Assembly: GCF_013315695.1 (NCBI RefSeq)
Contig: NZ_CP054353.1
Direction: 5' to 3' (one strand)
From: Escherichia coli
GTDB taxonomy: Bacteria; Pseudomonadota; Gammaproteobacteria; Enterobacterales; Enterobacteriaceae
DNA length: 64,000 nt
Positions 15,584-49,532 of the stretch are shown in pieces. Position numbers and translations under genes: made by a program. A model generated the notes under the pieces. It had not been told where the DNA came from, did not search any database, and saw only the letters and a list, made by a program, of their open reading frames with translations. Position 1 is the stretch's first letter; each line of letters starts with the position of its first letter.

Positions 15584-18326
15584 TCTTATCCGTCAGGTTA
15601 TCAGTGCGTCTGAAAACAACTGGCCTCATGTGCTGGGCTGCCTGAACATAAATGTCCCTGACTCTCCGCGCCGTCATGCTCCCTGCCCTGCATGTGGGGG
15701 CAAAGATCGATTCCGGTTCGATGACAACGGGCGCGGTAGCTTCATCTGTAATCAGTGCGGCGCTGGTGATGGGCTGGATTTAATTAAACGCGTAAATAAC
15801 TGCGACACAACAGAGGCGGCGCTTCTTGCCGCTGATGTTCTGGGTATTGATTACCGGACAACGGAAACACCAGAAGCCACCAGCCAGAAACGGGAACAAC
15901 TGGAAACCGAGCGCCAGCGACGCGAACAGGAGCGCCTGAAAAGGGCAGAGAAGGACGAACAACAAAGACGGGATACGTTTTCCCGTCAGTTTGATGACAT
16001 GCGCAGAAAGGCTGTAAACGGCAAATCTGATTATCTGGTTGCGAAAGGGGTAGGTGATTTTACATTCCCCGTGTTGCCCGATGGATCTCTGTTGCTGGCG
16101 CTGGTGGATAAATCCGGCGCAGTCACAGCAGCACAGACTATTACATCACATGGTGAAAAAAGACTCCTGACAGGTTCAGCAAAGCGGGGGGCATATCACG
16201 CCATAAACGCGCCAGAAACAACACAGAGCATCTTAATCGCAGAAGGGCTGGCAACGGCATTATCTGCCCATTTAATTCGTCCAGAGGCGCTGACAGTGGC
16301 GGCGATTGATGCCGGGAACCTGTTATATGTCGCCCAGGTACTGCGGGATAAATTTCCTTCAGCACAAATCATCATTGCTGCGGATAACGACCACAGCGAA
16401 GGAAGACAAAACACGGGGAGAATAGCAGCAGAAAAAGCAGCTTTATCTGTTTCTGGATGGGTGGCATTACCCCCGACAGATCACAAAGCAGACTGGAATG
16501 ATTACCACCAAAAACACGGCATTAAATGCGCCACAGAAGCGTTCAATAAGTCAATGTACCAACCACAGGGTAATGGCGTGAAACATGAGCCACAGACCAT
16601 TGAGGGAAGCGATTTTAAGGTTATGGATACCGACCCACTGAAACCAAGAATAGAAAGCCGCGAGGATGGTATTTATTGGGTATCTCCGAGAGCTGACAGC
16701 CAGAGTGGAGAAATCATCAATAACGAAAGCTGGTTATGTTCTCCGTTAAGCGTTATCGGTACTGGCAGAGACGATAAAGACCAGTATCTCATTCTTCGCT
16801 GGCTGTCGTTTGGTTCTGAAACGCCGACAACCGCTGCCATTCCACTGGCTGATATTGGTGAACGTGAAGGATGGCGCACACTTAAAGCTGGTGGGGTAAA
16901 TGTCACGACCAAAAGCAGCCTCAGAGCAATACTGGCAGACTGGCTACAACGCAGTGGCTCTCGTGAATTGTGGCGTGTTGCTCATGCCACTGGCTGGCAA
17001 TGCGGAGCGTACATCATGCCTGATGGGGAAATCATCGGAACACCTGAAAATCCTGTGCTGTTCAGCGGGAGAAGCTCAGCCGCAGCCGGATATACCGTCT
17101 CAGGGAGCGCGAAAAGCTGGCGTGATAACGTGGCGCGTCTGGCCTTTGGTAACTATTCAATGATGACCGGGATCGGCGCAGCACTGGCAGCGCCATTGAT
17201 TGGGCTGGTGGGCGCTGACGGGTTCGGCATTCATTTCTATGAGCAGTCGAGCGCAGGTAAGACCACCACGGCAAACGTGGCGAGCAGCTTATACGGCAAC
17301 CCTGATTTACTGCGGCTGACGTGGTACGGAACCGCGCTGGGGCTGGCAAATGAGGCCGCCGCCCACAATGACGGACTAATGCCGCTTGATGAAGTTGGTC
17401 AGGGCGCTGATCCTGTCAGCGTTTCACAGTCTGCCTATGCGTTATTTAACGGTGTAGGGAAACTGCAAGGCGCTAAAGATGGTGGAAACCGGGATCTAAA
17501 ACGCTGGCGTACAGTGGCAATCAGCACCGGAGAAATGGATTTAGAAACATTTATCGCTACTTCCGGGCGAAAAACCAAAGCCGGGCAACTGGTGCGACTG
17601 CTGAATATTCCGTTGAGTAAAGCAGTACGCTTTCACGATTACCAGAACGGAAAACAGCACGCAGACGCACTGAAAGACGCTTACCAGCATCACCACGGCG
17701 CGTCCGGGCGTGAGTGGATTAAATGGCTGGCAGACCACCAGCAACAGGCTATTAAAACCGTTCGTGACTGCGAAAGCAGATGGAGAAGCCTGATCCCATC
17801 CGATTATGGTGAGCAGGTTCACCGTGTAGCCGCGCGATTTGCCATTCTGGAGGCCGCATTGTTGTTAGGCGAGGTTGTAACAGGCTGGGATGCTCAGACA
17901 TGCCGTGATGCGATACAGCACAGCTATAACGCATGGTTGCGCGAGTTCGGCACAGGTAACAAAGAGCATCAGCAGATTATTGAACAAACGGAGGCATTTC
18001 TTAATGCCTATGGGCTTAGCCGTTTTGCACCATTTCCATACAGCCCGGCAGATTTGCCCATCAAAGATTTAGCCGGATACCGTCAGCGTGGAGAACATGA
18101 CGAAAGCCCAATGATTTTCTACACATTCCCGGCCACATTTGAAAAGGAGATCGCATGTGGTTTCAACGCAAAACAGTTTGCTGAAGTGTTGAAAAAAGCC
18201 GGGATGCTAACCCCACCAAACAGCGGTCGTGGATACCAAAGAAAATCACCACGTATTCAGGGACGACAAATAAACGTTTATGTACTCAATTACCAGCCAG
18301 GAGATTATAACTCATCTGAAGAATGA
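15567..18326 (+). CDS. P4-alpha-like primase/helicase (zinc-binding primase domain + Toprim + NTPase)
   Basis: 919-aa ORF; N-terminal zinc motif CPACGGKDRFRFDDNGRGSFICNQCG; acidic Toprim-like stretch IIIAADNDHSEGRQNTG; nucleotide-binding-like motif later; followed by an iteron array. Confidence 0.8.
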   Translation: MMRNIDLIRQVISASENNWPHVLGCLNINVPDSPRRHAPCPACGGKDRFRFDDNGRGSFICNQCGAGDGLDLIKRVNNCDTTEAALLAADVLGIDYRTTETPEATSQKREQLETERQRREQERLKRAEKDEQQRRDTFSRQFDDMRRKAVNGKSDYLVAKGVGDFTFPVLPDGSLLLALVDKSGAVTAAQTITSHGEKRLLTGSAKRGAYHAINAPETTQSILIAEGLATALSAHLIRPEALTVAAIDAGNLLYVAQVLRDKFPSAQIIIAADNDHSEGRQNTGRIAAEKAALSVSGWVALPPTDHKADWNDYHQKHGIKCATEAFNKSMYQPQGNGVKHEPQTIEGSDFKVMDTDPLKPRIESREDGIYWVSPRADSQSGEIINNESWLCSPLSVIGTGRDDKDQYLILRWLSFGSETPTTAAIPLADIGEREGWRTLKAGGVNVTTKSSLRAILADWLQRSGSRELWRVAHATGWQCGAYIMPDGEIIGTPENPVLFSGRSSAAAGYTVSGSAKSWRDNVARLAFGNYSMMTGIGAALAAPLIGLVGADGFGIHFYEQSSAGKTTTANVASSLYGNPDLLRLTWYGTALGLANEAAAHNDGLMPLDEVGQGADPVSVSQSAYALFNGVGKLQGAKDGGNRDLKRWRTVAISTGEMDLETFIATSGRKTKAGQLVRLLNIPLSKAVRFHDYQNGKQHADALKDAYQHHHGASGREWIKWLADHQQQAIKTVRDCESRWRSLIPSDYGEQVHRVAARFAILEAALLLGEVVTGWDAQTCRDAIQHSYNAWLREFGTGNKEHQQIIEQTEAFLNAYGLSRFAPFPYSPADLPIKDLAGYRQRGEHDESPMIFYTFPATFEKEIACGFNAKQFAEVLKKAGMLTPPNSGRGYQRKSPRIQGRQINVYVLNYQPGDYNSSEE

Positions 18327-18351
18327 GCTTCTTCATGTGCGTAGAAAAGGT

Positions 18352-19063: not shown

Positions 19064-19079
19064 AAATGGATGGCATCGC

Positions 19080-19541
19080 ATGGAACTAAAATTTATTGAT
19101 AACCCTGTGCGATTACAGGCCTTTCTTAACGAGCCAGGCAATACCGAAAATATTGTTGAGCCGGGGCACACGTACTACATCAAGCCTGATGCGGTATATC
19201 TCGGCATCTACGAAGGATTAGTGCTGGCTGGCGTTCATGAAGTGCGTAACTTCTGGCATAGCGTTGTTGAATGCCATGCGGTGTACGACCCCGGATTCCG
19301 TGGTGAATATGCACTGCAAGGACATCGATTATTCTGCAAATGGCTTCTCGAAAACTCACCATTCCTTAACAGCATTACCATGGTTCCTGACACCACGAAA
19401 TACGGACGGGCAATTATCCGTTTGCTTGGCGCTACCCGTGTTGGTCATCTTGATGATGCTTATATCAGATGTGGTAAACCCGTCGGCGTAACGCTTTATC
19501 AGTTAACTCGGCAACAATATAAGGAATTCAGCGAATGTTAA
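19080..19541 (+). CDS. hypothetical protein, first gene of coupled operon
   Basis: 153-aa ORF; its stop overlaps the next start. Confidence 0.5.
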   Translation: MELKFIDNPVRLQAFLNEPGNTENIVEPGHTYYIKPDAVYLGIYEGLVLAGVHEVRNFWHSVVECHAVYDPGFRGEYALQGHRLFCKWLLENSPFLNSITMVPDTTKYGRAIIRLLGATRVGHLDDAYIRCGKPVGVTLYQLTRQQYKEFSEC

Positions 19542-20212
19542 TTACCCATATAGCTTATAAACATCTCAATCGTGCCGTATACGAAAAAGGCGGTGATGGT
19601 GGTGCCTCTAAAGCTCAGGCGAAGGCCCAGCAGCAGGCAATTGATTTGCAGCGCGAGCAGTGGAATACGGTGATGAATAATCTCAAGCCGTATGCAGAAG
19701 TCGGATTGCCTGCTTTACAACAACTACAAGGACTGATGACTCTGGAAGGGCAGAATAAAGCCGCGAATGATTTCTTTGGTTCTGGTTTATATAAAACACA
19801 GGCAGATCAGGCCCGTTATCAGAACCTTGTCTCAGCAGAAGCTACCGGGGGGCTTGGCTCAACAGCTACCAGTAACCAGTTATCTTCCATTGCGCCCATG
19901 CTTTATAACAATTGGCTCAGTGGGCAAATGCAAAATTATGGAAACCTGCTAAATGTCGGGATGAATGCGGCATCAGGGCAGGCAACAGCAGGGCAAAACT
20001 ACGCCAATAATACCGGACAACTCTTGCAGGGGCTTGGCGCTATTCGTGCAGGTCAGGCGCAGCAGCCATCCAGTCTTGCGCGTGGTATTGGTGGGGCGGC
20101 ATCAGGCGCTTTAGCGGGTGCGCAACTTGGTTCCGTTGTTCCGGGTATAGGTAATGTCGCCGGGGCTATTGGTGGTGGGCTTATTGGTCTTGTTGGGGGG
20201 CTTGGATTCTAA
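19535..20212 (+). CDS. hypothetical protein with Gly/Ala-rich hydrophobic C-terminus (possible podovirus ejection-protein-like)
   Basis: 225-aa ORF; C-terminal GGAASGALAGAQLGSVVPGIGNVAGAIGGGLIGLVGGLGF glycine-zipper-like segment; TAATG overlap with the next gene. Confidence 0.5.
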   Translation: MLITHIAYKHLNRAVYEKGGDGGASKAQAKAQQQAIDLQREQWNTVMNNLKPYAEVGLPALQQLQGLMTLEGQNKAANDFFGSGLYKTQADQARYQNLVSAEATGGLGSTATSNQLSSIAPMLYNNWLSGQMQNYGNLLNVGMNAASGQATAGQNYANNTGQLLQGLGAIRAGQAQQPSSLARGIGGAASGALAGAQLGSVVPGIGNVAGAIGGGLIGLVGGLGF

Positions 20213-21625
20213 TGGCGACATGGCAACTTGGCGGGCTGCCTAGCATGGCACCGCAAAATGATAATGCTCCTCGTTCTTCCGTTCCTCAGCCTGTGCAGTA
20301 TCAGCAGCAGCCAAACGTAGGTTTAATGGCGCTACAGGGGCTAAGAGGCGTTGCTGAGATTAATCAGCAGGCACGTCAACAACAGCGTAAAGCAGAGTTT
20401 CAGAAAGCATATGCCGGGGCTTTTGAGTCTGGAGACAGAAACAAAATGCGCAGTCTTATTTCTGAGTATCCAGAAGAATTTGAAAGCGTTCAGAAAGGGA
20501 TGGGCTTTATTGATGACGACCAGAGAAATTCTATTGGTCATCTTGCGACTAGTGCTCAAATCGCATCTTCGCTCGGAACTGGGGCATTTGGAAAATTCAT
20601 AGCAGATAACGAAGATGAAATGCGTCGTTTGGGAATTTCTCCTGAGTCTGTTGCCGAAATGCATGTTAATGATCCACAGGGATTCCAGCGGCTTGCTGGT
20701 AGTATGGCACTGTTTTCTCTCGGTCATGAGAAGTACTTCGATATCAAAGATCGAATGGAAGGTCGGGATATTGAGCGTGGCAAGTTGGCAGAGACGATCC
20801 GCAGCAATCAAGCCGGAGAAGCACTTCAGGCGAGAGGGCAGGATATTAGCCGAGCAAATGCGTTAACGTCAGCATATGCACCAACAGCCGCAATGCAGAA
20901 TTACAATCAATACGCGCAAATGTTAAAGGCGGATCCAGAGGGGGCTGCGGCATTTGCGGCAGCGGCTGGAATTAATACAAACGCCAAAAAATTAATGAGT
21001 GTTAGAGAAAACGATGATGGCACTGTCACAAAATACTACACAGACGGAAGTGAAGAGCAGGGAAAACTAAACCAGCCAATATCTGGAGATGGGTTTCGTC
21101 CAATAGCTTTGCCAACAGCCCAAAAGATCATGGAAAAGTCGCCAGAAGGGGCTAAAAAAGCTGCTGGATTTGCATACAGAGTTAGGGATGCTCTTGATTC
21201 AATAGATACACTGAAAGACCAGCTTAGCCCACAGCGAGTGGCGATCATTAATAATGCTTTGGGTAATGGGACGCTGGCTAACTTAACGCTCAGCCCAACA
21301 GAGCAGCAATACGTTGTTAATGCTAATGACGCAATAATGGCAATACTCCGTCAGGAAACAGGGGCATCTATCCTACCAGCTGAAATGTCCAAATATTATC
21401 AAATGTATTTCCCTCAGCCTGGTGATTCCACAAAAACCATTGATACCAAGCGTAGGAAGATGGAAAACCAGTTCAATTCGCTGAAAGCTGCTTCTGGTCG
21501 AGCTTATGATGCTTTGCGGGTTATTTCAGCAGTTGACAGAGGAACTTCTTCTTCGTCGCAGACATTGCCGCAATCTGAGCAGGTATCACAGCCAGCAGTA
21601 ATTTTTCTTCACTATGGGGTGATTA
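20212..21625 (+). pseudogene. coupled-operon gene 3, 3' end interrupted by IS1 (ancestral product ~474 aa)
   Basis: Open frame runs into IS1 at 21626; rejoining the split target duplication gives native end ...HYGVING-stop, overlapping the ATG of the 701-aa gene now at 45798. Confidence 0.6.
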
Positions 21626-34110: not shown

Positions 34111-34824
34111 CTATTCCTGTTTAAAGGCAGGAGTAATAGTGTCTTCACCTTCACTACTTGATTTTTCAGTGTTAACACGTTTTTTCATATTCGCCCCGAT
34201 GTTCTTAGATGGCTGTGTTTTGATAGCTACAGTGTTTACAGTACCATAAGAAACTAATCTTATTTGTTCAAAGCTAAGATCAAATACCAGGGATTCGCTT
34301 GCCTCTTCTGTGTATTCGATGCCTGTTAAAACAACGTTCTCAAAAGTTTTATTTTCTGTAACAAGAAGAAAAGGCTGTCTACTGTCCATAATCTGATTCA
34401 AGTAGTCTATAGCTAATGATCTTCTGTTCCCGTTCACCCCTGCACTCTTTAACAAGCCAGGATCGCTTTTAATCGGTGTTTCAGTGATACGCCCTTTAAG
34501 AGAGAACTTATTGTTTTTAATTTGAACGTGATCAGACACAGTAGCACCATTTTCTACGGGGTAGCTTGTGACATCTGCCGAACGTCTCACGTTCACATCG
34601 TCAACACTATCAAAGGCCAGTGCCATATAATTTTCATAAACGTCATTACCAGAAGATGCCAAGCCACTGGTAACAATAGCAAATCCGTTCTCTCCTTTTG
34701 TTTTATTAGCTTTGCTATTTTCGTTTTTTGTAGAATTTATATCTTGTTCTGCTTTGTAAACAGCCTGAACGTGTTGTTCTGGAGTATTTGCTGCACGTAT
34801 GGTTAAAATCCCGGCGGTCGCCAT
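34111..34824 (-). CDS. hypothetical protein (AT-rich accessory gene)
   Basis: 237-aa ORF, low GC, immediately downstream of the 326-aa ORF on the same strand. Confidence 0.5.
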   Translation of the reverse strand: MATAGILTIRAANTPEQHVQAVYKAEQDINSTKNENSKANKTKGENGFAIVTSGLASSGNDVYENYMALAFDSVDDVNVRRSADVTSYPVENGATVSDHVQIKNNKFSLKGRITETPIKSDPGLLKSAGVNGNRRSLAIDYLNQIMDSRQPFLLVTENKTFENVVLTGIEYTEEASESLVFDLSFEQIRLVSYGTVNTVAIKTQPSKNIGANMKKRVNTEKSSSEGEDTITPAFKQE

Positions 34825-34846
34825 AATAATAATTTTCCTTGTAATG

Positions 34847-35799
34847 TTATGGCGGGAATTCCCCGCCGTTGGATTGTCCTGATAAGCTGGTTAATGTTAA
34901 TGATTTCAAGAAGCTATCCCGACTTGCTCTCGCTGTAAAATCCACATAATCGCTCAATCGTCCGGTGTCTGATTCGATAGTTAGCGGCACTTCTGTTACC
35001 ACTTCAAATGTAGGATTCAGATTAAACACAGGAGATAAATTATAAGCTGGAGTTGTCATTGCAAGATTATTTAAAGCACCCTGTTTGAGATTGGTTATCG
35101 GTGCTTCATTGACTGACATTTTTACATCTGACACAGAAGAATTATCATCGAAAAGCAATCCCTTAATTGTGTTAAAGAGAGAATGACTATTATCAGGTGT
35201 AGTTGTTGCAGTGCCAGCGCCTTTATATTGATTAGGAACGAGATTAGAAAGATTCTGTTTCATCCCTTCATTGCTTAATGGCGGTGCATCACCCATATTT
35301 TTCTGAATAGCATCTGTCTTATCATCATTACGATTAAACCAGTTTACAATCTTCATAATAGCTTCAAAGAGACTTCCTGTAGCTTCTCCCAGCTTCGTAA
35401 AATACGGAGTGAGATTAGAAAGGTTTTTCATAAACTCTTCCGTTACTTTTGGATCGAGAGATTTCATAAAGCCGTCTACGAATGCTACTTGTCTTGCATC
35501 AGAAAGCTGTGAAAGCTGTCTGTTTAGTTCTCTGAATTTAACAATAGAGTCTTGCTGTGTTTCTGTTAGCCATTTTCCAGAGGCTTTTTGCTGATTAATA
35601 CTTTCTTGTACATCTTTAACGGAACGTTGCCAATATTTTGACGTAAGCATCAAATCATCGCCCAGGTCTTCTAAACGTTGTCCAATTTGGGAGTCTGAAA
35701 ACCCTTTTTTCATCATTCCATTAACAGCCTTAGAAATTAATCCAGCCGGATTATCAGCAAATTTTTTAAGGTCGCTTTTGTTAATAACACCGATGTTTA
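34847..35799 (-). pseudogene. hypothetical protein, 5' end truncated by IS2
   Basis: Open frame continues to the IS2 boundary at 35800; the annotated Met at 35827 lies inside IS2. Confidence 0.55.
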
Positions 35800-37130
35800 T
35801 AGACTGGCCCCCTGAATCTCCAGACAACCAGTATCACTTATTTAAGTGATAGTCTTAATACTAGTTTTTAGACTAGTCATTGGAGAGCAGATGATTGATG
35901 TCTTAGGACCGGAGAAACGCAGACGGCGTACCACACAGGAAAAGATCGCAATTGTTCAGCAGAGCTTTGAACCGGGGATGACGGTCTCCCTCGTTGCCCG
36001 GCAACATGGTGTAGCAGCCAGCCAGTTATTTCTCTGGCGTAAGCAATACCAGGAAGGAAGTCTTACTGCTGTCGCCGCCGGAGAACAGGTTGTTCCTGCC
36101 TCTGAACTTGCTGCCGCCATGAAGCAGATTAAAGAACTCCAGCGCCTGCTCGGCAAGAAAACGATGGAAAATGAACTCCTCAAAGAAGCCGTTGAATATG
36201 GACGGGCAAAAAAGTGGATAGCGCACGCGCCCTTATTGCCCGGGGATGGGGAGTAAGCTTAGTCAGCCGTTGTCTCCGGGTGTCGCGTGCGCAGTTGCAC
36301 GTCATTCTCAGACGAACCGATGACTGGATGGATGGCCGCCGCAGTCGTCACACTGATGATACGGATGTGCTTCTCCGTATACACCATGTTATCGGAGAGC
36401 TGCCCACGTATGGTTATCGTCGGGTATGGGCGCTGCTTCGCAGACAGGCAGAACTTGATGGTATGCCTGCGATCAATGCCAAACGTGTTTACCGGATCAT
36501 GCGCCAGAATGCGCTGTTGCTTGAGCGAAAACCTGCTGTACCGCCATCGAAACGGGCACATACAGGCAGAGTGGCCGTGAAAGAAAGCAATCAGCGATGG
36601 TGCTCTGACGGGTTCGAGTTCTGCTGTGATAACGGAGAGAGACTGCGTGTCACGTTCGCGCTGGACTGCAGTGATCGTGAGGCACTGCACTGGGCGGTCA
36701 CTACCGGCGGCTTCAACAGTGAAACAGTACAGGACGTCATGCTGGGAGCGGTGGAACGCCGCTTCGGCAACGATCTTCCGTCGTCTCCAGTGGAGTGGCT
36801 GACGGATAATGGTTCATGCTACCGGGCTAATGAAACACGCCAGTTCGCCCGGATGTTGGGACTTGAACCGAAGAACACGGCGGTGCGGAGTCCGGAGAGT
36901 AACGGAATAGCAGAGAGCTTCGTGAAAACGATAAAGCGTGACTACATCAGTATCATGCCCAAACCAGACGGGTTAACGGCAGCAAAGAACCTTGCAGAGG
37001 CGTTCGAGCATTATAACGAATGGCATCCGCATAGTGCGCTGGGTTATCGCTCGCCACGGGAATATCTGCGGCAGCGGGCTTGTAATGGGTTAAGTGATAA
37101 CAGATGTCTGGAAATATAGGGGCAAATCCA
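35800..37130 (+). mobile_element. insCD: IS2 (1331 bp, complete)
   Basis: Ends TAGACTGGCCCCCTGAATCTCC ... GGAAATATAGGGGCAAATCCA; InsC (35891..36256) and InsD (36214..37119) match canonical IS2; no 5-bp target duplication. Confidence 0.95.
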
Positions 37131-37493
37131 TTAACACATAAGCAATCAGTATGATTGGTTAGGTGATTACTCTTACTGCGCACAGCGCAATAGATTTCTT
37201 CGTGGGCGTTACCGCCAACGAAGTTACACGAAGAAAGTAACGCTTTGCTTTCGGTGTGAGCGGAACGGGCCAGCCACGAAGCCCGAAAGGTAGCGGAGTA
37301 AGGCTGCTTGCCAGAGAGTGAAGCTAACGCCGGAAGGCAAAAGATCATATATATAGATATAAAGAATATTATTATTATGATCTAATTAATAATCTAATAT
37401 AGTTTTATTAATAGTCTTATTGTAGTTCACAGTGACCTACCCCCTAGCTCACTATGACCTACCGTTACTACCAATCATCACATAGCACTCACT

Positions 37494-38277
37494 CTGTGTA
37501 ATGCCTTTCTATGTGTGTGCCATAATCCCCTATATTCCCTGTGTAAATCATAGAATATCCCTAACTTATTCCTGTGTAATTCCATACTAAAAATTCAATG
37601 AAAAGTAGCTTAAAAGTGCAATTCTTACTTTCTTCACTTTTACATCACTTTCGCAAATCCTTGTGTAGTGCGGCCTACAGAGCACCATCAGAAATTGTTG
37701 GCTAAAAATTGTTCTGCTTGTTTCTTAACGAGTTTTCTCGTTTGTGCAAATTTTAAAATTTATTTTGTTTTTACAGCCTTATTTCGTGTAATGCGTGGCA
37801 TAGCAAGCCCTTTTCTTGTGTTGTCAAGACATTTGGCAACGTTCAAACATCTGTTTAGAAATGCCAAATTGTTGATCTAACAAATAAACCTGTATAAACA
37901 GAACACCATTTAATCTATTCCCCTGTGTAATCCACTACATCACACAATAAAAACAAAAAAACCTTTAATTATGTTTCATAGCATACAAAAGTCAACAGAA
38001 GCCCTCTCGTGCTCCTACGTAAAAAATCCATCACTTTTCCCCTGATACATCAACTCAAGGCGTTCTATGTGTTCCTTAGTGCATATTACGTTTATTATGT
38101 TAAATTGATTTTGGCCTATATTTTGACCTGCACCCGCATAAACACTGGTTTCATCGCTTACACTCCTTGTGAGACGTGGTGCTGTTTCTAGCATCTGATC
38201 CGACATAAAACCGATCATTCTCGTGTTTAGTGAAAGTTTAGTGAGAGACATTACAGAAAGGCTTTCTGTGTAATGAT
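37494..38277 (+). repeat. Dispersed C(T/C)TGTGTAAT motif family in AT-rich non-coding DNA
   Basis: CTGTGTAAT-like copies at ~37494, 37539, 37572, 37783, 37924, 38269; nearby direct repeat (G/A)TGACCTACC at ~37430-37470. Confidence 0.5.
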
Positions 38278-38424
38278 TTAATAGGTAAAAACGATGTTGA
38301 TTACGCAAGAAAATTCCTTGCTGATATTTGGGGATTCTGGATTTTCCAGATCGGGGGGCGCTGAAAATCGCGTTAAGCACCTCTCGCAATCTAGCCATAA
38401 GGGAAGGGATATAGGTATTTAGAT

Positions 38425-38590
38425 GTATTTATAGCTATTTATGGCTATTTATTTTTTATTTGCCTTTATTTAAAAATAACCTTATAAATCAATAAGATAC
38501 ACAACTATCTGTTTATATTTTAATCAATTAAATCAAGTTTAATACCCTTAAATCACCTGAAAATACCCTTAAATACCCCAATAATTAATT
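38425..38590 (+). repeat. Iteron-like direct repeats
   Basis: TATTTATAGCTATTTATGGCTATTTATT (38425-38452) and ATACCCTTAAAT twice (38541-38584); no ORF over 60 aa in this stretch. Confidence 0.5.
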
Positions 38591-39723
38591 TTAAGGTTTT
38601 CCGTGTTCTCTTCTGCATTATGAAAATGCAAAATAAGGCACAAAACAAGCGCACAGACGCATTAAACACACATCACCTATACATCCCTATACCAAGCAAT
38701 GAAAATAGCGTTAGAATGCGTCCTGTTGCGTTCTGGAGATTTTCAGAAATCCTCTCTAAGCCATTTCAACTCATTAAGGAGTTTTCTTTCTTCGTTCTCT
38801 CTCTGTTTACGCTCTAGCCAGGCTTTTCCTTCTGGCGTAGACAGGAACTTACGAGCGTGAATCTTGCGGTTATTACGTTTGATAGCTGCAATGTTTTTCA
38901 TCGTGTGCCTCTGTATTCATATGAAAATTAACAAGTTACATACTACACAGGGAGACTACGCATAAAACACAATACAAGTAAAGATACATTTTCAAGACAA
39001 TAGGAGCCATAAAGCGCCTTTGATGGGCTACCCCAAAAAATAAGCGCCGTAGGCGTATCCACTAAAAGGGCTTTTTCACAAAAGCTATGAAGTCTTAGCA
39101 GTTCTTCTCTTATCAGGCACCCGTTGTACTCCGGTGGACGAAACCGTGCTAGAGCTTGATTCTTTCCCGATCAAGTTAGGTTTTGAAGAGGTGGGCTTTG
39201 ATCCACTATTGCACTTAAAACTCTTCCCATCATTTAGCCTGTTTATCCTCTGCAACGTCTCACGACGTGTAGCATCATTGGACACCGCGCCAGGTGTGGA
39301 ACATCTTGCTAAGAGTTTTGGTAGAAGGTTTAGAGACGGTGGCACGTCTTCCAGCTTCAAAGGAACTTGTTACGAGGTTGAGCCTGGGAACTACTCGCCC
39401 ATACGTGTTACACTACCAAAGCCCATAACAACGTATAGGCGTTTGTAAGTGATAACAGAAGATACAATTTCTTAGAGAAGTTAAGCTAAGTTATTGATTT
39501 TCTTGATTGTGCGATAATAGGAACAATACACATAGGCGATAAGCTTTGTTTTTGTTGCCTTTTTTATTGTTCATTTTTTATAGATACCCCCAAAAGTACC
39601 CCCATATCTTTTTCCGCCCCTGAAATTTGGTTGTTATTCATACAGCATATCAGGCGGTAACGCTCTCCCTTTAACCCACTTATTGTATGATAGTGCTATC
39701 CCACAATAAGGAATCAGCCAGCC

Positions 39724-40083
39724 ATGAGAATGACCAGCCGCAAAAAAGAGATACTTAGCTACTTTGAACCGGATAACCTCGAATGGGTGACTGGTGAGAT
39801 TGGTGCGCCGCCGTTCGATGTGTCGGGTGTGGCCTACCTGCTTCATGGCATGGTGTCGTTCGATAAGCGTCACCAGCTCGAATCAACCCGGCGCACACTG
39901 GAAAGCATGGTTGCTGGTGGACTGCTTGAGCGGGTGACAGTGTATGAATCGCGCCAGATACGGCGCGGCGGTGATACTAACGCAACGGTCGTGCGCTACG
40001 GTTTACCCGGTCAGTGCGCTGTTATGCGCGATACTGGCGGCGCTGACAACGCAATATCAGGTGAATACATGCGGGTCAGTTAA
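39724..40083 (+). CDS. hypothetical protein
   Basis: 119-aa ORF with normal GC content. Confidence 0.4.
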   Translation: MRMTSRKKEILSYFEPDNLEWVTGEIGAPPFDVSGVAYLLHGMVSFDKRHQLESTRRTLESMVAGGLLERVTVYESRQIRRGGDTNATVVRYGLPGQCAVMRDTGGADNAISGEYMRVS

Positions 40084-40618
40084 TAGCCTGCAATCTGTCG
40101 TTGATGCGGCTCAGGTCGTAAACCCGGCGTTCAATATCCAGCATCAGGAAATTGTGGATCTCGGCCTGCTCAGGATTATCAGACTCTCTGGCCTGTAATA
40201 GCAATTCATTGTAACCATGCAAGCCGCCTGAGTTTTCCGCCGGGGTGGTGCCTTTCCCACGCAGGCAGCTAATGGGCTGATTACTCGTATCGTGTGTTTG
40301 CTTCTCCAGCACAATGACGCAATCCCACCAGTCGCCAAAGTCATACGTGTAAACCAGCTTGTCACCCTCATTCTGGAGCGCCGCCCATAGTGGCGTGATT
40401 GCCGCGTTACCCATGCTTTCATCCTCACCCCATACGCGATACTCGCTACCTGGATCACCTTTACGCCCTTTCTCGAACATATACAGGTGTTCGTCATTCC
40501 AGCCAAAAGCTAACTGGATCACGGCATGAAGTTTACTAAAGGGGATTTGCTCTGGAACCAGCACACGCCGCCATATAGGTGGTTTGCTGTCTCGGATGGT
40601 TATCTTTAGCTGGTACAT
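40076..40618 (-). CDS. pRiA4b ORF-3-like family protein
   Basis: 180-aa ORF MYQLKITIRDSKPPIWRRVLVP...; N-terminal motif recalled as typical of the pRiA4b ORF-3-like (PF07929) family. Confidence 0.5.
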   Translation of the reverse strand: MYQLKITIRDSKPPIWRRVLVPEQIPFSKLHAVIQLAFGWNDEHLYMFEKGRKGDPGSEYRVWGEDESMGNAAITPLWAALQNEGDKLVYTYDFGDWWDCVIVLEKQTHDTSNQPISCLRGKGTTPAENSGGLHGYNELLLQARESDNPEQAEIHNFLMLDIERRVYDLSRINDRLQAIN

Positions 40619-40738
40619 GCAAATCCTGAATAAATGCGAATCGGAAGGATAACGATACTGACGTACTCACAATTCTGTAAAGGTGAATAAAGGAAATTTG
40701 CTTAATACGCATAAGTTACATGTGGAATAATCCCATAT

Positions 40739-40924
40739 CTACCTGCGCGGCGCTGGCTTCTTCCACTGATAGGCAGGTGCTCGCATCATTTCGCGGAACC
40801 TGTCGCGCCGGGCTATATCGGCATTAACTGATCGTTCTATCTCCCGTTGATCTGCCTGTGTAAGCTGGTGGCCTCCGTGCTCAAGTTTGGCGATGGTCAA
40901 TAAGGCTATTTCGCGTGGTGTCAT
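40739..40924 (-). CDS. small hypothetical protein
   Basis: 61-aa ORF. Confidence 0.3.
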   Translation of the reverse strand: MTPREIALLTIAKLEHGGHQLTQADQREIERSVNADIARRDRFREMMRAPAYQWKKPAPRR

Positions 40925-41221
40925 ACGTCATACCCTCTGGAAGAATGAAACACGCCCGGATTAAATTTCATTTTTCGCGGGTATAAAAAAACGATGGGGC
41001 GGGCAGTCCCGGATAGTCAGGGCTGTAGAGATTTGACTACCCCCTCCCCACTGGATTCAGGTTACTGCTATTCCGTTAAGCGCTGCTTACGGGGATAGCT
41101 GCGTTGTGATTTTGACCATTCAGGTCGCCGCTATTTCCTCACCGATTGGGTGCTACGCGCGCGCGTACTTGTCCCGAAATACCAGAAACCGCCAGCCAGA
41201 GGATGATTTCCCTCTGGTGGT

Positions 41222-41503
41222 CTACCTTTGCCTCTTGCCGCCATTTAACCGGAAGGCGTTACCGTTCGGTTGCGCTATCCCCATGCGGTGTTGCGTTTCG
41301 GTAACAGCTTTATGCAGGTCGCCAAATTCCTCAACCTTCACGGGCGGGCGCTTCACGTTCTCCAGACACGTTTCACGGCGGCGCTTTATCCATTCCCGAT
41401 CATCGTCCTCGGTGCATAACAGCATGACTTCCATCCATCGTGCGGCAGCTCTCCGGTATAGCCCTTTTGACTCCAGCTCTTCAGCTTTCCTGTCCCTTAT
41501 CAT
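41222..41503 (-). CDS. PerC-family transcriptional activator
   Basis: 93-aa ORF MIRDRKAEELESKGLYRRAAARWMEVMLLC..., resembles PerC/Pch proteins of prophage islands. Confidence 0.6.
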   Translation of the reverse strand: MIRDRKAEELESKGLYRRAAARWMEVMLLCTEDDDREWIKRRRETCLENVKRPPVKVEEFGDLHKAVTETQHRMGIAQPNGNAFRLNGGKRQR

Positions 41504-41539
41504 TTCTGCCTCTCAGATTATATAGATAAGCAAAAAGGT

Positions 41540-41678
41540 GTTGGTTCAGTTGGTTCAGTTGGTTCAGTTGGTTCAGTTGGTTCAATTTGTAAAGATTGTT
41601 GTTTTTATTGTGTTTTTTCTGAAATATTGAACCAACATCAACTCATTTTGAACCAACACAGCCCAGCTCTGAACCAAC
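41540..41678 (+). repeat. Iteron array 2 (paralog of array 1)
   Basis: GTTGGTTCA x5 tandem (41540-41584), spacer TTCAATTTGTAAAGATTGTTGTTTTTATTG, then TGAACCAAC x3; the spacer aligns with array 1. Confidence 0.65.
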
Positions 41679-41780
41679 AACACAGCGATAGATTTGTGAT
41701 TGGTCCGTTATTTTCTGGCTGATATTTGAGCGTATAACAGTGTTATACAGTGGTATACTGTATGGATATTACTCACTGAT

Positions 41781-42236
41781 ATGGTCTTTGCAATGAGCAA
41801 ATCTAATCTGGTCGCGTTCCGCATCCCATCTGAATTGCAGGATGAGTTTAATCGGTCTGTTCTCGCTTCTGGAGGAGATAAAACCTCCTGGCTTGTTGAT
41901 GCGATTCGCATGAAGCTGGGGCAGCCGGAAAAGTCTATTGATTCACGAATGCTTGGGCTGGTGGAGCGCATGGAAAAAGCCGCTGCGTCGCTTATTGCCG
42001 GAAAGCCGAACATCCCACCAAAACCATATAACGAAACGGCAGTTATAAAGATCATTGCCGATACCATCCAACAGGGATTTGATAATGGGCGTGTGATAGC
42101 TGAACGGATCAATGAAGCAGGCTATCAAACAAAAGCTGGTAAAGCGTGGGATAAAGATATTTACAGCGCGTGGAAGCGTCAGGGAAGCAATGCTGAAAAG
42201 CTAAAAGCAGTGATTGATTGTAAGGTCAGCGTATAA
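41781..42236 (+). CDS. putative ribbon-helix-helix DNA-binding protein adjacent to the iteron array
   Basis: 151-aa ORF; N-terminal SNLVAFRIPSELQDEFNRSVLASGGDKTSWLVDAIRMKL fits an RHH (Arc/MetJ/CopG-like) pattern. Confidence 0.45.
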   Translation: MVFAMSKSNLVAFRIPSELQDEFNRSVLASGGDKTSWLVDAIRMKLGQPEKSIDSRMLGLVERMEKAAASLIAGKPNIPPKPYNETAVIKIIADTIQQGFDNGRVIAERINEAGYQTKAGKAWDKDIYSAWKRQGSNAEKLKAVIDCKVSV

Positions 42237-42315
42237 ACATGAGTGCCCATTGGAAAGTTGCTTGGGCCAATACCTTTATACACCAGCAGGTAGTGACGAT
42301 AGGTGAGGATCAGAT

Positions 42316-42537
42316 ATGAAAGGCAGAACGCCACACATTGAACATCAAGCCAACCACTTCCCTGATGTTCGCAATGAGATGATTGCCATTCGCGGTGATA
42401 TGCACGGATTGGAGCGTCGAATTATTGATAAGATTGATGAAAATAGAGATAAGGCCAGTGAAAATCAAAAGTGGATCATCGGCCTGTTGATTTTATCAAT
42501 TCTTATCCCGCTACTTATCGCATTGGTCACAAAATGA
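42316..42537 (+). CDS. small tail-anchored membrane protein
   Basis: 73-aa ORF with C-terminal hydrophobic helix WIIGLLILSILIPLLIALV. Confidence 0.35.
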   Translation: MKGRTPHIEHQANHFPDVRNEMIAIRGDMHGLERRIIDKIDENRDKASENQKWIIGLLILSILIPLLIALVTK

Positions 42538-43058
42538 ATATCCAATGTGTATGCTGTCGATGCTACGCGCGCGTACTTGTCGCAAAATATCAGGCAAAGG
42601 CCAGATTCAGAAAGTCGTGATAACCACCAGCACAACATGAGAGGTCATGTAACGCGATTTATCACACCAGATACATGTGATTGGTGTACCCGCATAAAAC
42701 ATCGTCATAGCGCGTCCTGTGCGCATATACGCCGATAATCAACACATCACCACCACTCTGTCTCATGTAGAGAACAGTTTTATGGTATCCCCCGCCATCG
42801 TGTGCGTACTGGTCGGACGCAGTTGCAAAAAATTTTGCAACTGATACCCCTCGCGCGCGTACTGGTCACGAAATTGGTGTTTTGCTGTGGCAGTGATATC
42901 AGAAAAATCTTCCTGTTTCACATAAAGCGGATATGCGCGTACTGTAACGGCCCCATCAACTGGGAGCGGACTTGAAATCCCGACCCAAGCTATGTACCAA
43001 ATGCCATGTCTTGGATATATGATGATTGCCATTCTAAACAACGCTAAAGGGGGTTGGT

Positions 43059-43673
43059 GTGAGCAGAAAAGATACTAAAGAATTGCTAACTATCTGCATG
43101 GTGTACTTTTCAATTTATTTTTGTGCATACATGATAGTCCCAGATGAGTTTGAACATGGCAGTATTATTTATTCCATAACATTCTATTTTTTAGAGCTAA
43201 CACCAATTTTGGCTATCCTTTTGGGAATACATATTTATTTTTCCTTAAAAAAAGAATCGACTAATTGGGAGAAGGTATGGAGAGACAGAGGATTTCTAAC
43301 ATCACCTAAAGATGATGCATATGAGAGTGATTTTTCTGACTTTATAACAAACTACTACTCCAGCGAACAATTCAAAAATAGACTGTCTGATGTTTGGGAA
43401 ACAGCAATGTATTCCATAGGGATTATATTATTGATACTTACTGGTATTGCTCAATATGTTTTTAACATTGACTTATCATTAAATCCTGAAAATTTAATAT
43501 CGCCATTGATTTTTGGTGAGATATTGATCTTCTCATTCGGAATTTTCTTGAGTGTTGTTCTCTGCTCATTATGCAAGCTACTGACTAACAGGTATCCGGG
43601 TGAAGCAAGGAGAGCAAGAAAGGCAAATCCATATTATCTTTTATTTCCTAATGGAGACAGCAGAGATATCTAA
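43059..43673 (+). CDS. AT-rich multi-pass membrane protein (candidate exclusion/accessory moron)
   Basis: 204-aa ORF with about four hydrophobic helices, strongly A/T-biased codons, GTG start. Confidence 0.5.
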   Translation: MSRKDTKELLTICMVYFSIYFCAYMIVPDEFEHGSIIYSITFYFLELTPILAILLGIHIYFSLKKESTNWEKVWRDRGFLTSPKDDAYESDFSDFITNYYSSEQFKNRLSDVWETAMYSIGIILLILTGIAQYVFNIDLSLNPENLISPLIFGEILIFSFGIFLSVVLCSLCKLLTNRYPGEARRARKANPYYLLFPNGDSRDI

Positions 43674-43692
43674 GCCATCCATGGCTAACCAG

Positions 43693-45798
43693 TTATTGAG
43701 CTTCTTTTTGTGATGCCTGTGCGACTCTGGTGAGCGATTGTGTGACCGTACTGATCGCTCTGTCATATGCTGTGCTACCTTTTGGCGTATTTGCCAGACG
43801 TAACAAGGCATTTCGTATAACAGGGCTTTCGTATGCCTTCGCTGCTCCGCCTACGGCACCAGCAGCAGGAACAACAAACGCAGCCGTTTTTAGCATCCCC
43901 GCTAATACTGCTGCGTTTATGATGCCACCACCAACTAACAATCCATAAAGCTGCTGACCATTTAAGTTTTGAACGTTCGCTTTTGCCGCGTGTCTTGTAT
44001 CGTTGAGGTATTTAATAACGCCGTCCAGTTCCTTTCCATGTACGCCTTTAAAGAAAGTTGCTGATTGCTTCCTGTTCCGGTGTAACGCATTAATAAACTT
44101 CTCAACACTGATATTTCCAGACGGATCAGTCGCCTTATCTACAGCATTCTGAACTATGGCTGCTCGTGCGTTTTGCCTACCATTGTCATCCAGAAGCCTG
44201 TAAAGCTGAGAACGTTCTGATGGGCTTTGGCTAAAAACGAGTTTTGTTACATCCTCAGGCGTGGCCTTACCGCTGGCTATTGCCTTTTGAACGCGCGTTC
44301 TTCCCATCATGTCATTGAATTTAGACCATGACCGATCAACCCTTGCCATATTAATGGCTTCGTCTGCTCCAAGATTTTTGGCTACGGCTTTTTTCATATC
44401 CGCCGTATATGCCTTGTAGATAATATCGCTGGCTTTCTGGAGCGTATCTTTATCAACAGTGTCAGATGACGCCATAAATCGCTTTCGAAGATCGGTTCTG
44501 TTTTCCCTCGCCAGACGCAGGTCATTTGGTCCGCTGGTGATATCGTCTTTAAATTGCTGCAAGACTTTTACCGCGGCTCTATCCTGAGATTTGCCCGGGC
44601 GGCTTAACACGGCAATCTGATTGTCGATAGCTTTTACCGTGTTTGAGAGATCGACAGGGGTATCCCCCATAGCGTCAATTATGCGGTTATATCGCTTTCC
44701 TGCTGCCTCAATGAATTTTTGTTGCCCTTTAGTCGCAGATTCATAAAGCTGTTTATCAGAAATGCCACCCAGACCATCGCTAAATGTTCTGACTAAATTT
44801 TCTCGTGCTTGTTGTTGATTCAGCCGATTCTTACCGGTTCCAAAAAAAGGAACTCTTTCGCCTAATGTCTGAGCCTGACTCTGCATAAAGGTTTTATCTT
44901 TCAGCATGTCACTGGTCATTAACGGCAGATTTCTTTCCGATGCAAAGTTGACAGCAGCCTTTGCTTCAGGCGACATATCACCACGAACAGCCCTCGAAAC
45001 CGCACTCGCTGTATTTTCCAGCCCCTTACCAATACCACCAATGCCAGCAGAAATTACCGTTTGTAACGGATCAATATCTTCTCCACCAGCAAGGCTGGTG
45101 GCTCCCTGTAGTGCTAAATCTGTAGCTGCTGATTTTCCTATGGCACCAAGCACCGTTCCAGCCCTGCCCGCTGGTGTAAACGCCAGCGCATTAGCCAGAA
45201 ACGATGCCACGTCTTGCGGCGATAAACCCGGCTTGTTCAGAGCATAATCACCGGATGGCAGGGAAACGATAGTGTTACCCTTCTCATCCTGCCTTAATTT
45301 CGCTCCCATGCTCTGAAGAATCTTTTCCTGAGATGCGTCAGAGCCGAAAAGTTGAGACCATCGAGCTTTTAGAGCACCCATGCTGAGTGAGGTTAACTCT
45401 GGGGCAAGGTCGACATTTTGCAGTCTCTCCATCTCTGGAGTCATTCGGCTTTCGCCTGTTATAGCATCGCGCATCGCAGCCCCAAGACTGGCTCCCTGTT
45501 CTGCTGAACGCTCAAGCCCCTCTCTTTGCTGAGTAGCTAACTTTGCATACCCTGACGCAAGAGAATTATCAGATGATGTATGTTGAATATTTTGAGTTGC
45601 TGATTGGGATCGGTCTATTTCATTCGTTGATGGTAGTGGATAGGCAGCATAAAAAGCCTGCTTAGCCTGCGCTACACTTTCTCCGGCTTGCGGGGCCACG
45701 ACTTCATTGAAGTATTGCTCCTGAGCCTGCGCTTTTTGTTCTGGTGCTAACGCCTGATACTGTGGAGAGGCGATAACATCTTTCCATGCTTTAGCCAT
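43693..45798 (-). CDS. large alpha-helical protein, fourth gene of the split coupled operon (possible ejection/internal virion-like)
   Basis: 701-aa ORF; ATG 9 bp from the IS1 copy 3 boundary; the flanking 9 bp is the reverse complement of the duplication at IS1 copy 1; Gly/Ala-rich hydrophobic segment near the C-terminus. Confidence 0.6.
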   Translation of the reverse strand: MAKAWKDVIASPQYQALAPEQKAQAQEQYFNEVVAPQAGESVAQAKQAFYAAYPLPSTNEIDRSQSATQNIQHTSSDNSLASGYAKLATQQREGLERSAEQGASLGAAMRDAITGESRMTPEMERLQNVDLAPELTSLSMGALKARWSQLFGSDASQEKILQSMGAKLRQDEKGNTIVSLPSGDYALNKPGLSPQDVASFLANALAFTPAGRAGTVLGAIGKSAATDLALQGATSLAGGEDIDPLQTVISAGIGGIGKGLENTASAVSRAVRGDMSPEAKAAVNFASERNLPLMTSDMLKDKTFMQSQAQTLGERVPFFGTGKNRLNQQQARENLVRTFSDGLGGISDKQLYESATKGQQKFIEAAGKRYNRIIDAMGDTPVDLSNTVKAIDNQIAVLSRPGKSQDRAAVKVLQQFKDDITSGPNDLRLARENRTDLRKRFMASSDTVDKDTLQKASDIIYKAYTADMKKAVAKNLGADEAINMARVDRSWSKFNDMMGRTRVQKAIASGKATPEDVTKLVFSQSPSERSQLYRLLDDNGRQNARAAIVQNAVDKATDPSGNISVEKFINALHRNRKQSATFFKGVHGKELDGVIKYLNDTRHAAKANVQNLNGQQLYGLLVGGGIINAAVLAGMLKTAAFVVPAAGAVGGAAKAYESPVIRNALLRLANTPKGSTAYDRAISTVTQSLTRVAQASQKEAQ

Positions 45799-45807
45799 TA
45801 ATCACCC

Positions 45808-46575
45808 GGTGATGCTGCCAACTTACTGATTTAGTGTATGATGGTGTTTTTGAGGTGCTCCAGTGGCTTCTGTTTCTATCAGCTGTCCCTCCTGTTCAGC
45901 TACTGACGGGGTGGTGCGTAACGGCAAAAGCACCGCCGGACATCAGCGCTATCTCTGCTCTCACTGCCGTAAAACATGGCAACTGCAGTTCACTTACACC
46001 GCTTCTCAACCCGGTACGCACCAGAAAATCATTGATATGGCCATGAATGGCGTTGGATGCCGGGCAACAGCCCGCATTATGGGCGTTGGCCTCAACACGA
46101 TTTTACGTCACTTAAAAAACTCAGGCCGCAGTCGGTAACCTCGCGCATACAGCCGGGCAGTGACGTCATCGTCTGCGCGGAAATGGACGAACAGTGGGGC
46201 TATGTCGGGGCTAAATCGCGCCAGCGCTGGCTGTTTTACGCGTATGACAGGCTCCGGAAGACGGTTGTTGCGCACGTATTCGGTGAACGCACTATGGCGA
46301 CGCTGGGGCGTCTTATGAGCCTGCTGTCACCCTTTGACGTGGTGATATGGATGACGGATGGCTGGCCGCTGTATGAATCCCGCCTGAAGGGAAAGCTGCA
46401 CGTAATCAGCAAGCGATATACGCAGCGAATTGAGCGGCATAACCTGAATCTGAGGCAGCACCTGGCACGGCTGGGACGGAAGTCGCTGTCGTTCTCAAAA
46501 TCGGTGGAGCTGCATGACAAAGTCATCGGGCATTATCTGAATATAAAACACTATCAATAAGTTGGAGTCATTACC
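45808..46575 (+). mobile_element. insAB: IS1 copy 3 (768 bp, complete)
   Basis: Terminal repeats GGTGATGCTGCCAACTTACTGAT ... ATCAATAAGTTGGAGTCATTACC; InsA 45863..46138, InsB 46057..46560. Confidence 0.97.
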
Positions 46576-46608
46576 CGTTTATTCATAATAAATCTCCTGA
46601 AAGTTTAG

Positions 46609-49532
<2,924 letters not shown>

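What the first reader, a model, noticed from the sequence alone, without database searches (positions are those of the whole stretch)
43693..45807. 701-aa gene is the displaced fourth cistron of the same operon
Rejoining the split GGGTGATTA duplication gives ...CACTATGGGGTGATTAATGGCTAAAGCATGG..., where the stop of the ~474-aa gene overlaps the ATG of the 701-aa gene (ATGGCTAA). These were one coupled transcription unit before IS1 insertion and inversion. The 701-aa gene now sits ~24 kb away on the opposite strand and has lost its native promoter context, so expression probably depends on IS1 outward transcription or is silenced.
Basis: seen in the sequence. Interest (0 to 1): 0.6.

Follow-up and report, generated by a model that had tools for sequence, protein, structure and literature searches.

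The report
IS1 inversion split a satellite's ejection-gene operon
The 701-aa gene is the last gene of a phage-type DNA-ejection operon carried by a known kind of E. coli phage satellite; a rearrangement between two IS1 copies flipped it 24 kb away from its partners, which is ordinary insertion-sequence damage to a decaying mobile element.

Summary
IS1-A (21626-22393) and IS1-C (45808-46575) lie in opposite orientation, and each carries one half of two 9-bp target duplications (GGGTGATTA, CGTTTATTC). This is the signature of an inversion of 22394-45807. The rejoined gene junction is continuous in 301 complete E. coli genomes and in phage Sf6. A sister genome (AF3) has the un-inverted order, and MSB1_4I has the same inversion.

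The four genes are homologues of phage P22 genes 14, 7, 20 and 16. The 701-aa gene is the gene-16 homologue ("DNA transfer protein") and is intact.

One correction: the ATGGCTAA overlap is not ancestral. This lineage lost one CAGCCAG unit near the 3' end of the gene-20 homologue, which shifts its frame. Relatives and Sf6 end ...SNFSSLWGD* with a TAATG overlap.

The inversion also put attL and attR in inverted orientation, so the island probably cannot excise.

Expression is untested. A useful IS1 fusion promoter is unlikely because the ATG lies 10 nt from the IS1 end, so silence or weak read-through is most likely. This is ordinary and of low interest.

The parts
43693..45798 (-). 701-aa homologue of P22 gene 16 (ejection / 'DNA transfer' protein); intact ORF; last cistron of the 14-7-20-16 module
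   Evidence: ORF; phrog_770 DNA transfer protein, E 3.6e-159, residues 19-700 against profile positions 3-667 of 668; full-length tblastn to Sf6 gene 13 (32.7%, E 2e-78), ST64T gene 16 (31.6%, E 5e-74) and phage N7 (67%); identical to MSB1_4I and AF3.
45799..45807 (-). One copy of the 9-bp IS1 target duplication GGGTGATTA. It holds the Shine-Dalgarno-like GGGTGA of the 701-aa gene.
45808..46575 (+). IS1-C, 768 bp, with IRL next to the 701-aa gene's start
46576..46584 (+). One copy of the second 9-bp target duplication, CGTTTATTC
   Evidence: The rejoined junction is intact at 100% identity in AF14.
21626..22393 (-). IS1-A, 768 bp, the recombination partner of IS1-C. It differs from C at IS1 position 735.
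21617..21625 (+). Other copy of GGGTGATTA, at the end of the gene-20 homologue
22394..22402 (+). Other copy of the second duplication (GAATAAACG, the reverse complement of CGTTTATTC)
22394..45807 (.). The 23.4-kb segment that is inverted relative to AF3, AF14 and the usual E. coli gene order
   Evidence: against AF14; against AF3; gene order in AF14
20212..21630 (+). Homologue of P22 gene 20 (ejection protein), third cistron. Its last 15 codons are frameshifted and it now stops inside IS1.
   Evidence: ORF; phrog_917, E 4.6e-110. (frameshift). PGAP marks the MSB1_4I copy 'frameshifted'.
21589..21598 (+). Site of the 7-nt deletion: CAGCCAGCAG here, CAGCCAGCAGCCAGCAG in relatives
19535..20212 (+). 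Homologue of P22 gene 7 (ejection protein), second cistron
   Evidence: phrog_598, E 1.8e-69..
19080..19541 (+). Homologue of P22 gene 14 (DUF2824), first cistron
   Evidence: phrog_651, E 1e-66; annotated DUF2824.
15567..18326 (+). Primase of the satellite (TOPRIM + DUF927)
   Evidence: phrog_1139, E 2.2e-178..
9025..10239 (+). Tyrosine integrase of the satellite
   Evidence: phrog_1..
8784..8859 (+). tRNA-Thr (CGU), the integration site. The attL core TCCTATTATC lies at 8843-8852.
   Evidence: The att core sequence is from PMC11773190.
39513..39522 (-). attR core TCCTATTATC, now inverted relative to attL
   Evidence: only two occurrences in the window, 0.05 expected by chance..
41221..41502 (-). 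PerC-family regulator gene of the satellite, carried in the inverted part
   Evidence: feature at L002 14223-14504. The window coordinate follows from the offset.

Best explanation
The 701-aa gene is the homologue of phage P22 gene 16 and the last gene of a 14-7-20-16 ejection-protein module. That module lies downstream of the primase in an EcCIMP1-like phage-inducible chromosomal island (PICI) integrated at tRNA-Thr (thrW).

Shown:
- An IS1 sits exactly in the junction between the gene-20 and gene-16 homologues, with target GGGTGATTA. That 9-mer covers the ribosome-binding site and the first two bases of the gene-20 stop codon. The insertion leaves both reading frames intact.
- A second IS1, in the opposite orientation, sits 23.4 kb away upstream of a LysR-family gene, with target CGTTTATTC.
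- The DNA between the two copies is inverted relative to sister genomes.

Inferred:
- The inversion arose by homologous recombination between the two IS1 copies, or in one step by intramolecular replicative transposition. The two routes leave the same product.

Consequences:
- (a) Shown: the gene-16 homologue is cut off from its three partner genes and from everything upstream of them in the island.
- (b) Shown: its start codon and Shine-Dalgarno-like sequence survive, but 768 bp of IS1, read antisense, now lies upstream.
- (c) Shown for the geometry, inferred for the consequence: attL and attR of the island are now inverted relative to each other and 30.7 kb apart, so integrase would invert rather than excise and the island is stranded.
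- (d) Shown: the gene-20 homologue also carries a 7-nt frameshift deletion. The module is decaying.

Most likely expression state (inferred): silent or only weakly read through. The ORF is intact because the events are recent, not because it is still used.
For: - Split duplications.
- Rejoined junctions exist uninterrupted elsewhere: 301 genomes; 100% identity in AF14.
- Same inversion in an independently assembled complete genome, MSB1_4I, which is colinear with the window at 99.94-99.98% identity.
- Un-inverted sister genome AF3 with IS1 at both sites in inverted orientation.
- Un-inverted backbone without these IS1 copies (AF14).
- Homology of the four genes to P22-type genes 14, 7, 20 and 16.
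- Same order and overlapping stop/start in phages Sf6 and N7.
- PICI identity. The paper describes EcCIMP1 at tRNA-Thr with att core TCCTATTATC and the P22-like helper phage Kapi1. The window has tRNA-Thr and exactly two att cores, on opposite strands. It is 97.6-99.7% identical to EcCIMP1 of strain MP1 outside the variable ejection-gene alleles.
- Frameshift.
- No sigma-70-like site on the minus strand inside IS1-C at the scan's threshold.
- IS1 is listed only under fusion promoters in PMC9330008.
Against: - No transcript data exist, so every statement about expression is inference.
- The promoter scan is crude, and its hit counts do not exceed those of shuffled sequence.
- Two promoter-like sites at 46658-46610 on the minus strand, in the divergent LysR control region, point into IS1 and could give read-through.
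- The native promoter of the module was not found. 'Lost its native promoter' therefore rests on the loss of all upstream island DNA, not on a mapped promoter.
- The collection holds no genome with an un-inverted IS1 flanked by a full direct duplication at either site. The order of events cannot be read directly.
Confidence: 0.9

Rival explanations
1. The inversion arose in a single step. An IS1 already sitting in the gene-20/gene-16 junction underwent intramolecular replicative transposition into CGTTTATTC. This created the second, inverted copy and flipped the segment in one event, rather than by recombination between two independent insertions.
For: The product of such an event has exactly the flank pattern seen, with both 9-mers split as reverse complements. 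No sampled genome has an un-inverted IS1 at the LysR site with a full direct duplication. Counting events over the window, MSB1_4I and AF3 gives five under either model. That IS1 makes adjacent deletions and inversions is my own recollection of the classical literature.
Against: AF3 has both IS1 copies with the segment un-inverted. Under this model that needs a later re-inversion. IS1-A and IS1-C differ at position 735, whereas a fresh replicative copy would be identical. A later mutation or gene conversion could explain the difference.
Confidence: 0.3
2. The 701-aa gene is still expressed at a useful level in its new place. Transcription would come either from the divergent promoter region of the LysR gene, reading through IS1, or from a promoter inside IS1.
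For: The start codon and the GGGTGA ribosome-binding sequence are preserved. Promoter-like sites at 46658-46630 and 46637-46610 on the minus strand point toward the gene. The hairpin inside IS1 on that strand is not a convincing terminator (z -1.79, with the U run inside the stem). The ORF is intact.
Against: IS1 insertions are classically polar in both orientations (own knowledge, not tested here). No promoter-like site was found on that strand inside IS1. IS1 is known for fusion promoters only, and the ATG is too close to the IS end for one to serve. Without a working gene-20 homologue and an excisable island, the product has no evident use. The intactness is explained by recency, since there are 0 nt differences among three genomes.
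Confidence: 0.2
3. The arrangement is an assembly error across identical 768-bp IS1 repeats, and the real chromosome has the un-inverted order.
For: Four near-identical IS1 copies lie within 64 kb. A sister genome, AF3, has the other orientation.
Against: The RefSeq complete genome MSB1_4I, assembled independently, has the same order and the same junctions at 99.94-99.98% identity.
Confidence: 0.04

Closest known systems
P22 gp16 / Sf6 gp13 ejection ('DNA transfer') proteins of P22-like podophages (Lederbergvirus)
   Same: Full-length homology: phrog_770 at E 3.6e-159, Sf6 gp13 at 32.7% and ST64T gp16 at 31.6%. It is the last gene of the 14-7-20-16 cluster. Its start overlaps the stop of the gene-20 homologue. 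The junction sequence is nearly identical to that of Sf6.
   Different: It is 701 aa and only about 32% identical to the phage prototypes; the best phage match is N7 at 67%. It is carried by a satellite without capsid, tail or lysis genes rather than by a phage. Here it is physically separated from genes 14, 7 and 20. There is no Pfam, NCBIfam HMM or PDB match.
EcCIMP1, a PICI of E. coli MP1 mobilised by the P22-like phage Kapi1 (ISME J 2025, PMC11773190)
   Same: Same integration site (tRNA-Thr between proA and yagU) and same att core TCCTATTATC. Same gene order: int, HTH, antirepressor, DUF4222, Ash, primase, DUF2824, DNA-transfer genes, PerC, pRiA4b-ORF3. Identity is 97.6-99.7% outside the variable region.
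   Different: The 3' part of gene 20, gene 16 and the genes just downstream are different alleles. MP1 has a 906-aa protein with a lytic-transglycosylase domain. This copy is split by IS1, inverted, and has a frameshifted gene-20 homologue.
IS-mediated chromosomal inversions (recombination between inverted IS copies, or intramolecular replicative transposition as described for IS26 in PMC10501869 and PMC4471558)
   Same: Two inverted IS copies bound the segment, and each 9-bp target duplication is split between them.
   Different: Nothing unusual. The only particular point is that the insertion hit the 1-nt stop/start overlap and left both reading frames intact.

Membership tests
P22 gp16-type ejection protein | Sequence homology over the whole length to gp16 / Sf6 gp13 | tested here: met
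   PGAP names the identical protein in AF3 'P22-gp16 family phage DNA ejection protein'.
P22 gp16-type ejection protein | Position as the last gene of a 14-7-20-16 cluster, directly after the gene-20 homologue | tested here: met
   Met after rejoining the duplication. It is directly adjacent in 301 genomes and in Sf6 and N7. It is not met in the window's present layout.
P22 gp16-type ejection protein | Packaged in the virion and released into the host envelope at infection | not testable with these tools
   Needs virion proteomics or infection assays.
EcCIMP1-like PICI | Integration at tRNA-Thr between proA and yagU, flanked by the att core TCCTATTATC | tested here: met
   Both cores are present, but in inverted orientation.
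EcCIMP1-like PICI | Core gene set and order (integrase, AlpA-type HTH, antirepressor, Ash, primase) with high identity to EcCIMP1 | tested here: met
   (97.6-98% nt identity).
EcCIMP1-like PICI | No capsid, terminase, tail or lysis genes within the att-bounded element | tested here: met
   Annotation of the colinear MSB1_4I copy and PHROGs hits. The only virion-related genes are the 14-7-20-16 homologues.
EcCIMP1-like PICI | Helper-dependent excision, circularisation and transfer | not testable with these tools
   Predicted to be lost here because attL and attR are inverted. This is inference.
IS1 | 768-bp element with terminal inverted repeats, insA/insB' and a 9-bp target duplication | tested here: met
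   PGAP calls the colinear copies 'IS1A family transposase'.
Translationally coupled operon | Co-transcription of the four genes | not testable with these tools
   Only the structure is known: overlaps of 7, 1 and (ancestrally) 1 nt, and no terminator-like site between the genes.

The most novel reading that the evidence does not exclude
EcCIMP1-type satellites carry a complete P22-type set of ejection-protein genes (14, 7, 20, 16) in many allelic forms. They may use it to equip hijacked helper capsids with their own DNA-ejection machinery, rather than for packaging as the describing paper suggested. The window (gene 20 frameshifted, gene 16 uncoupled), AF3 (genes 14-20 deleted) and MP1 (module intact) would then form a natural allelic series for testing whether a satellite needs its own ejection proteins. 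My evidence shows only the homology, the synteny and the presence of the 701-aa allele in 397 of 5426 genomes. It says nothing on function.
Probability: 0.25. Interest if true: 0.55.

Novelty: new member of a known kind. Interest (0 to 1): 0.2.

Why it matters
It matters little beyond annotation. It shows how one IS1 insertion plus one inversion can disable a phage satellite in two ways at once: it uncouples an operon and it turns one attachment site. It also explains why annotation pipelines report an orphan 'P22-gp16 family' gene next to IS1, far from any phage genes. The related genomes (inverted, un-inverted with deletions, and intact) could serve as natural mutants for asking what the ejection-protein module does for EcCIMP1-type satellites.

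Tried and rejected
- NCBIfam HMMs, Pfam, PADLOC and a PDB sequence search gave nothing for the 701-aa protein. Its identity rests on PHROGs and tblastn.
- I looked for a genome with an un-inverted IS1 flanked by a full direct duplication at either site, to order the events. None ranked among the best places. AF3 has both IS1 copies but with adjacent deletions.
- I tried to use the single IS1 polymorphism (position 735) to choose between recombination and one-step transposition. The pattern differs among the window, MSB1_4I and AF3 and is not informative, probably because of gene conversion.
- The terminator-like hairpin inside IS1 on the relevant strand is not convincing on folding.
- The literature search for IS1 polarity found nothing usable. 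That point rests on my own knowledge.
- I first considered the cluster a remnant of a P22-like prophage. I rejected this because the att-bounded element matches the described PICI EcCIMP1.
- Literature searches combining 'satellite' with 'ejection protein' found nothing on the element. It was found through thrW / P4-like / primase terms.

Full report
**What is at the coordinates.** The minus strand of 43693-45798 holds an ATG-started 701-aa ORF. Nine bases upstream of its ATG a 768-bp IS1 begins (45808-46575, plus strand). The window contains four IS1 copies:

| Copy | Coordinates | Strand |
|---|---|---|
| A | 21626-22393 | - |
| B | 25129-25896 | - |
| C | 45808-46575 | + |
| D | 63495 to window end | + |

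**The inversion.**
- Copy A is flanked by GGGTGATTA on its IRR side and GAATAAACG on its IRL side.
- Copy C is flanked by TAATCACCC on its IRL side and CGTTTATTC on its IRR side.
- Each 9-mer next to A is the reverse complement of one next to C. Neither copy has a direct duplication of its own.
- GGGTGATTA occurs nowhere else in the window. CGTTTATTC has one unrelated extra occurrence.
- This pattern is expected when the DNA between two inverted IS1 copies, 22394-45807, has been inverted.

**Test by comparison with other genomes.**
- I rebuilt both ancestral junctions and searched 5,426 complete E. coli genomes.
- The gene junction is a single uninterrupted alignment in 301 genomes, annotated 'phage DNA ejection protein | injection protein'.
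- The reciprocal junction (oxidoreductase fragment next to the LysR gene) is uninterrupted at 100% identity in AF14 and NZ_OZ546911.
- AF14 has the order predicted for the un-inverted state: ejection genes, PerC, yagU, ykgJ, ecpEDCBAR, ykgOM, ykgR, oxidoreductase fragment, LysR gene, fdeC.
- MSB1_4I, an independent complete genome, is colinear with the window at 99.94-99.98% identity and has the same inversion and junctions. A mis-assembly is therefore unlikely.
- AF3 is a sister genome in which the segment is un-inverted. It has an IS1 at the same place next to the 701-aa gene and another, in opposite orientation, at the LysR site.
- AF3 has also lost the stretch corresponding to window 10947-21625 next to the first IS1, and 31 nt next to the second.
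- Recombination between two pre-existing inverted copies and one-step intramolecular replicative transposition each need five events to explain the three genomes. I cannot separate them and give recombination the edge.

**What the genes are.**

| Window gene | PHROG family | E-value |
|---|---|---|
| 153 aa | phrog_651 (P22 gene 14 type, DUF2824) | 1e-66 |
| 225 aa | phrog_598 (gene 7 type) | 1.8e-69 |
| 472 aa | phrog_917 (gene 20 type) | 4.6e-110 |
| 701 aa | phrog_770 ('DNA transfer protein', gene 16 type) | 3.6e-159 |

- The phrog_770 match covers almost the full length of the protein.
- tblastn aligns the 701-aa protein end to end with Sf6 gene 13 and ST64T gene 16 (about 32% identity, E 1e-74 to 1e-78). 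The best phage match is N7 at 67%.
- In Sf6 and N7 the order is 14-7-20-16 with overlapping stops and starts.
A 53-codon ORF also lies just upstream of the first gene.
- The 701-aa gene is intact. It has 0 nt differences from MSB1_4I and AF3, and 11 nt and 4 aa differences from ECONIH1.

**Correction to the junction.**
- All 40 top hits span 1407 nt against the 1400-nt query.
- In the one copy aligned base by base, ECONIH1, the extra 7 nt are a second CAGCCAG unit 37 nt before the junction. The window and MSB1_4I have one unit.
- ECONIH1, 23GD11002 and phage Sf6 all read ...SNFSSLWGD* and end in TAATG, a 1-nt stop/start overlap.
- The deletion is therefore derived, and the gene-20 homologue is frameshifted. 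PGAP marks it so in MSB1_4I.
- The IS1 target covers the ribosome-binding sequence and the first two bases of the ancestral stop codon. In the ancestral frame the first G of IS1 restores a stop (TAG). The insertion as such changed neither protein.

**What the operon belongs to.**
- The genes lie downstream of an integrase, an AlpA-type HTH gene, an antirepressor, an Ash-family gene and a TOPRIM-DUF927 primase, next to tRNA-Thr.
- This is the layout of EcCIMP1. EcCIMP1 is a 19,963-bp phage-inducible chromosomal island of E. coli MP1, integrated at tRNA-Thr between proA and yagU with att core TCCTATTATC. It was shown to be induced and transferred by the P22-like phage Kapi1.
- The authors of that paper noted DUF2824 and DNA-transfer-like genes downstream of the primase (PMC11773190).
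- The window is 97.6-98% identical to EcCIMP1 from tRNA-Thr to the gene-7 homologue, and 99.7% identical from attR to PerC. The 3' part of gene 20, gene 16 and their downstream neighbours are a different allele.
- The att core occurs exactly twice in the window: at 8843-8852 (+), inside the tRNA, and at 39513-39522 (-).
- The inversion thus also turned attR relative to attL. Without IS1 the island would be 19,069 bp.
- Integrase acting on inverted sites inverts rather than excises. The island is therefore very probably immobile. This last step is inference.

**Expression.**
- The start codon and GGGTGA survive.
- A crude scan finds no sigma-70-like site on the minus strand inside IS1-C. It finds two promoter-like sites in the LysR divergent region that point into IS1.
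- A hairpin inside IS1 on that strand is not a convincing terminator.
- A review lists IS1 only among elements that create fusion promoters. With the ATG 10 nt from the IS end, such a promoter would start transcription at or after the ATG.
- From my own knowledge, IS1 insertions are polar in both orientations.
- My best guess is no expression or weak read-through. This is untested.

**Verdict.** The finding is real and correctly read in its main point, but it is ordinary. An IS1-bounded inversion has dismembered a known type of phage satellite that is already decaying, with a frameshifted gene-20 homologue. The ecp operon next door has also been truncated by a third IS1.

Noticed in passing
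window 21589-21598: The gene-20 homologue lacks one CAGCCAG unit of a tandem pair. This shifts the frame of its last 15 codons. The deletion is shared with MSB1_4I and is absent from ECONIH1, 23GD11002 and phage Sf6.
   Followed up: yes
window 25129-25896 (IS1-B) and 25883-28180: IS1-B has no target duplication and abuts a truncated ecpC. Compared with AF14, about 2.3 kb is missing (the 5' end of ecpC, then ecpB, ecpA and ecpR). The E. coli common pilus operon is therefore inactivated in this lineage.
   Followed up: partly
window ~32590-39512: A second integrase-bearing, phage-like remnant (integrase, 'phage baseplate protein', an IS2-disrupted gene) lies between attR of the island and yagU. 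AF3 keeps about 6.4 kb more of it, including a major capsid protein gene, next to the IS2. It could be a second satellite or prophage remnant integrated in tandem.
   Followed up: partly
window 43059-43673 (+): A 204-aa membrane-like ORF convergent with the 701-aa gene gives a weak hit to SieA-like superinfection exclusion proteins (phrog_7745, E 4.4e-4). From memory, it sits where sieA lies in P22, directly after gene 16.
   Followed up: partly
window 45630-45807 and L006 (Sf6) around 3440-3530: The last ~40 nt of gene 20 and the first ~35 nt of gene 16 are nearly identical to phage Sf6, although the two gene-16 proteins are only 33% identical overall. In many E. coli genomes only the first ~170 nt of the gene match at 95%, attached to other gene-16 alleles. 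This looks like a conserved recombination joint for swapping ejection-protein alleles.
   Followed up: partly
L007 / L008 (AF3, NZ_OZ547117.1): AF3 shows IS1-adjacent deletions at both IS1 copies: 10.7 kb of the island from the antirepressor region to gene 20, and 31 nt at the LysR-site copy. The IS1 corresponding to IS1-D is followed by a lacA fragment in AF3, which points to a further IS1-linked deletion between ykgG and lacA. IS1 is very active in this lineage.
   Followed up: partly
window 46610-46658 (-): Promoter-like sites in the divergent control region of the LysR gene used to face an NADH:flavin oxidoreductase pseudogene fragment. They now face IS1-C and, beyond it, the 701-aa gene.
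   Followed up: no
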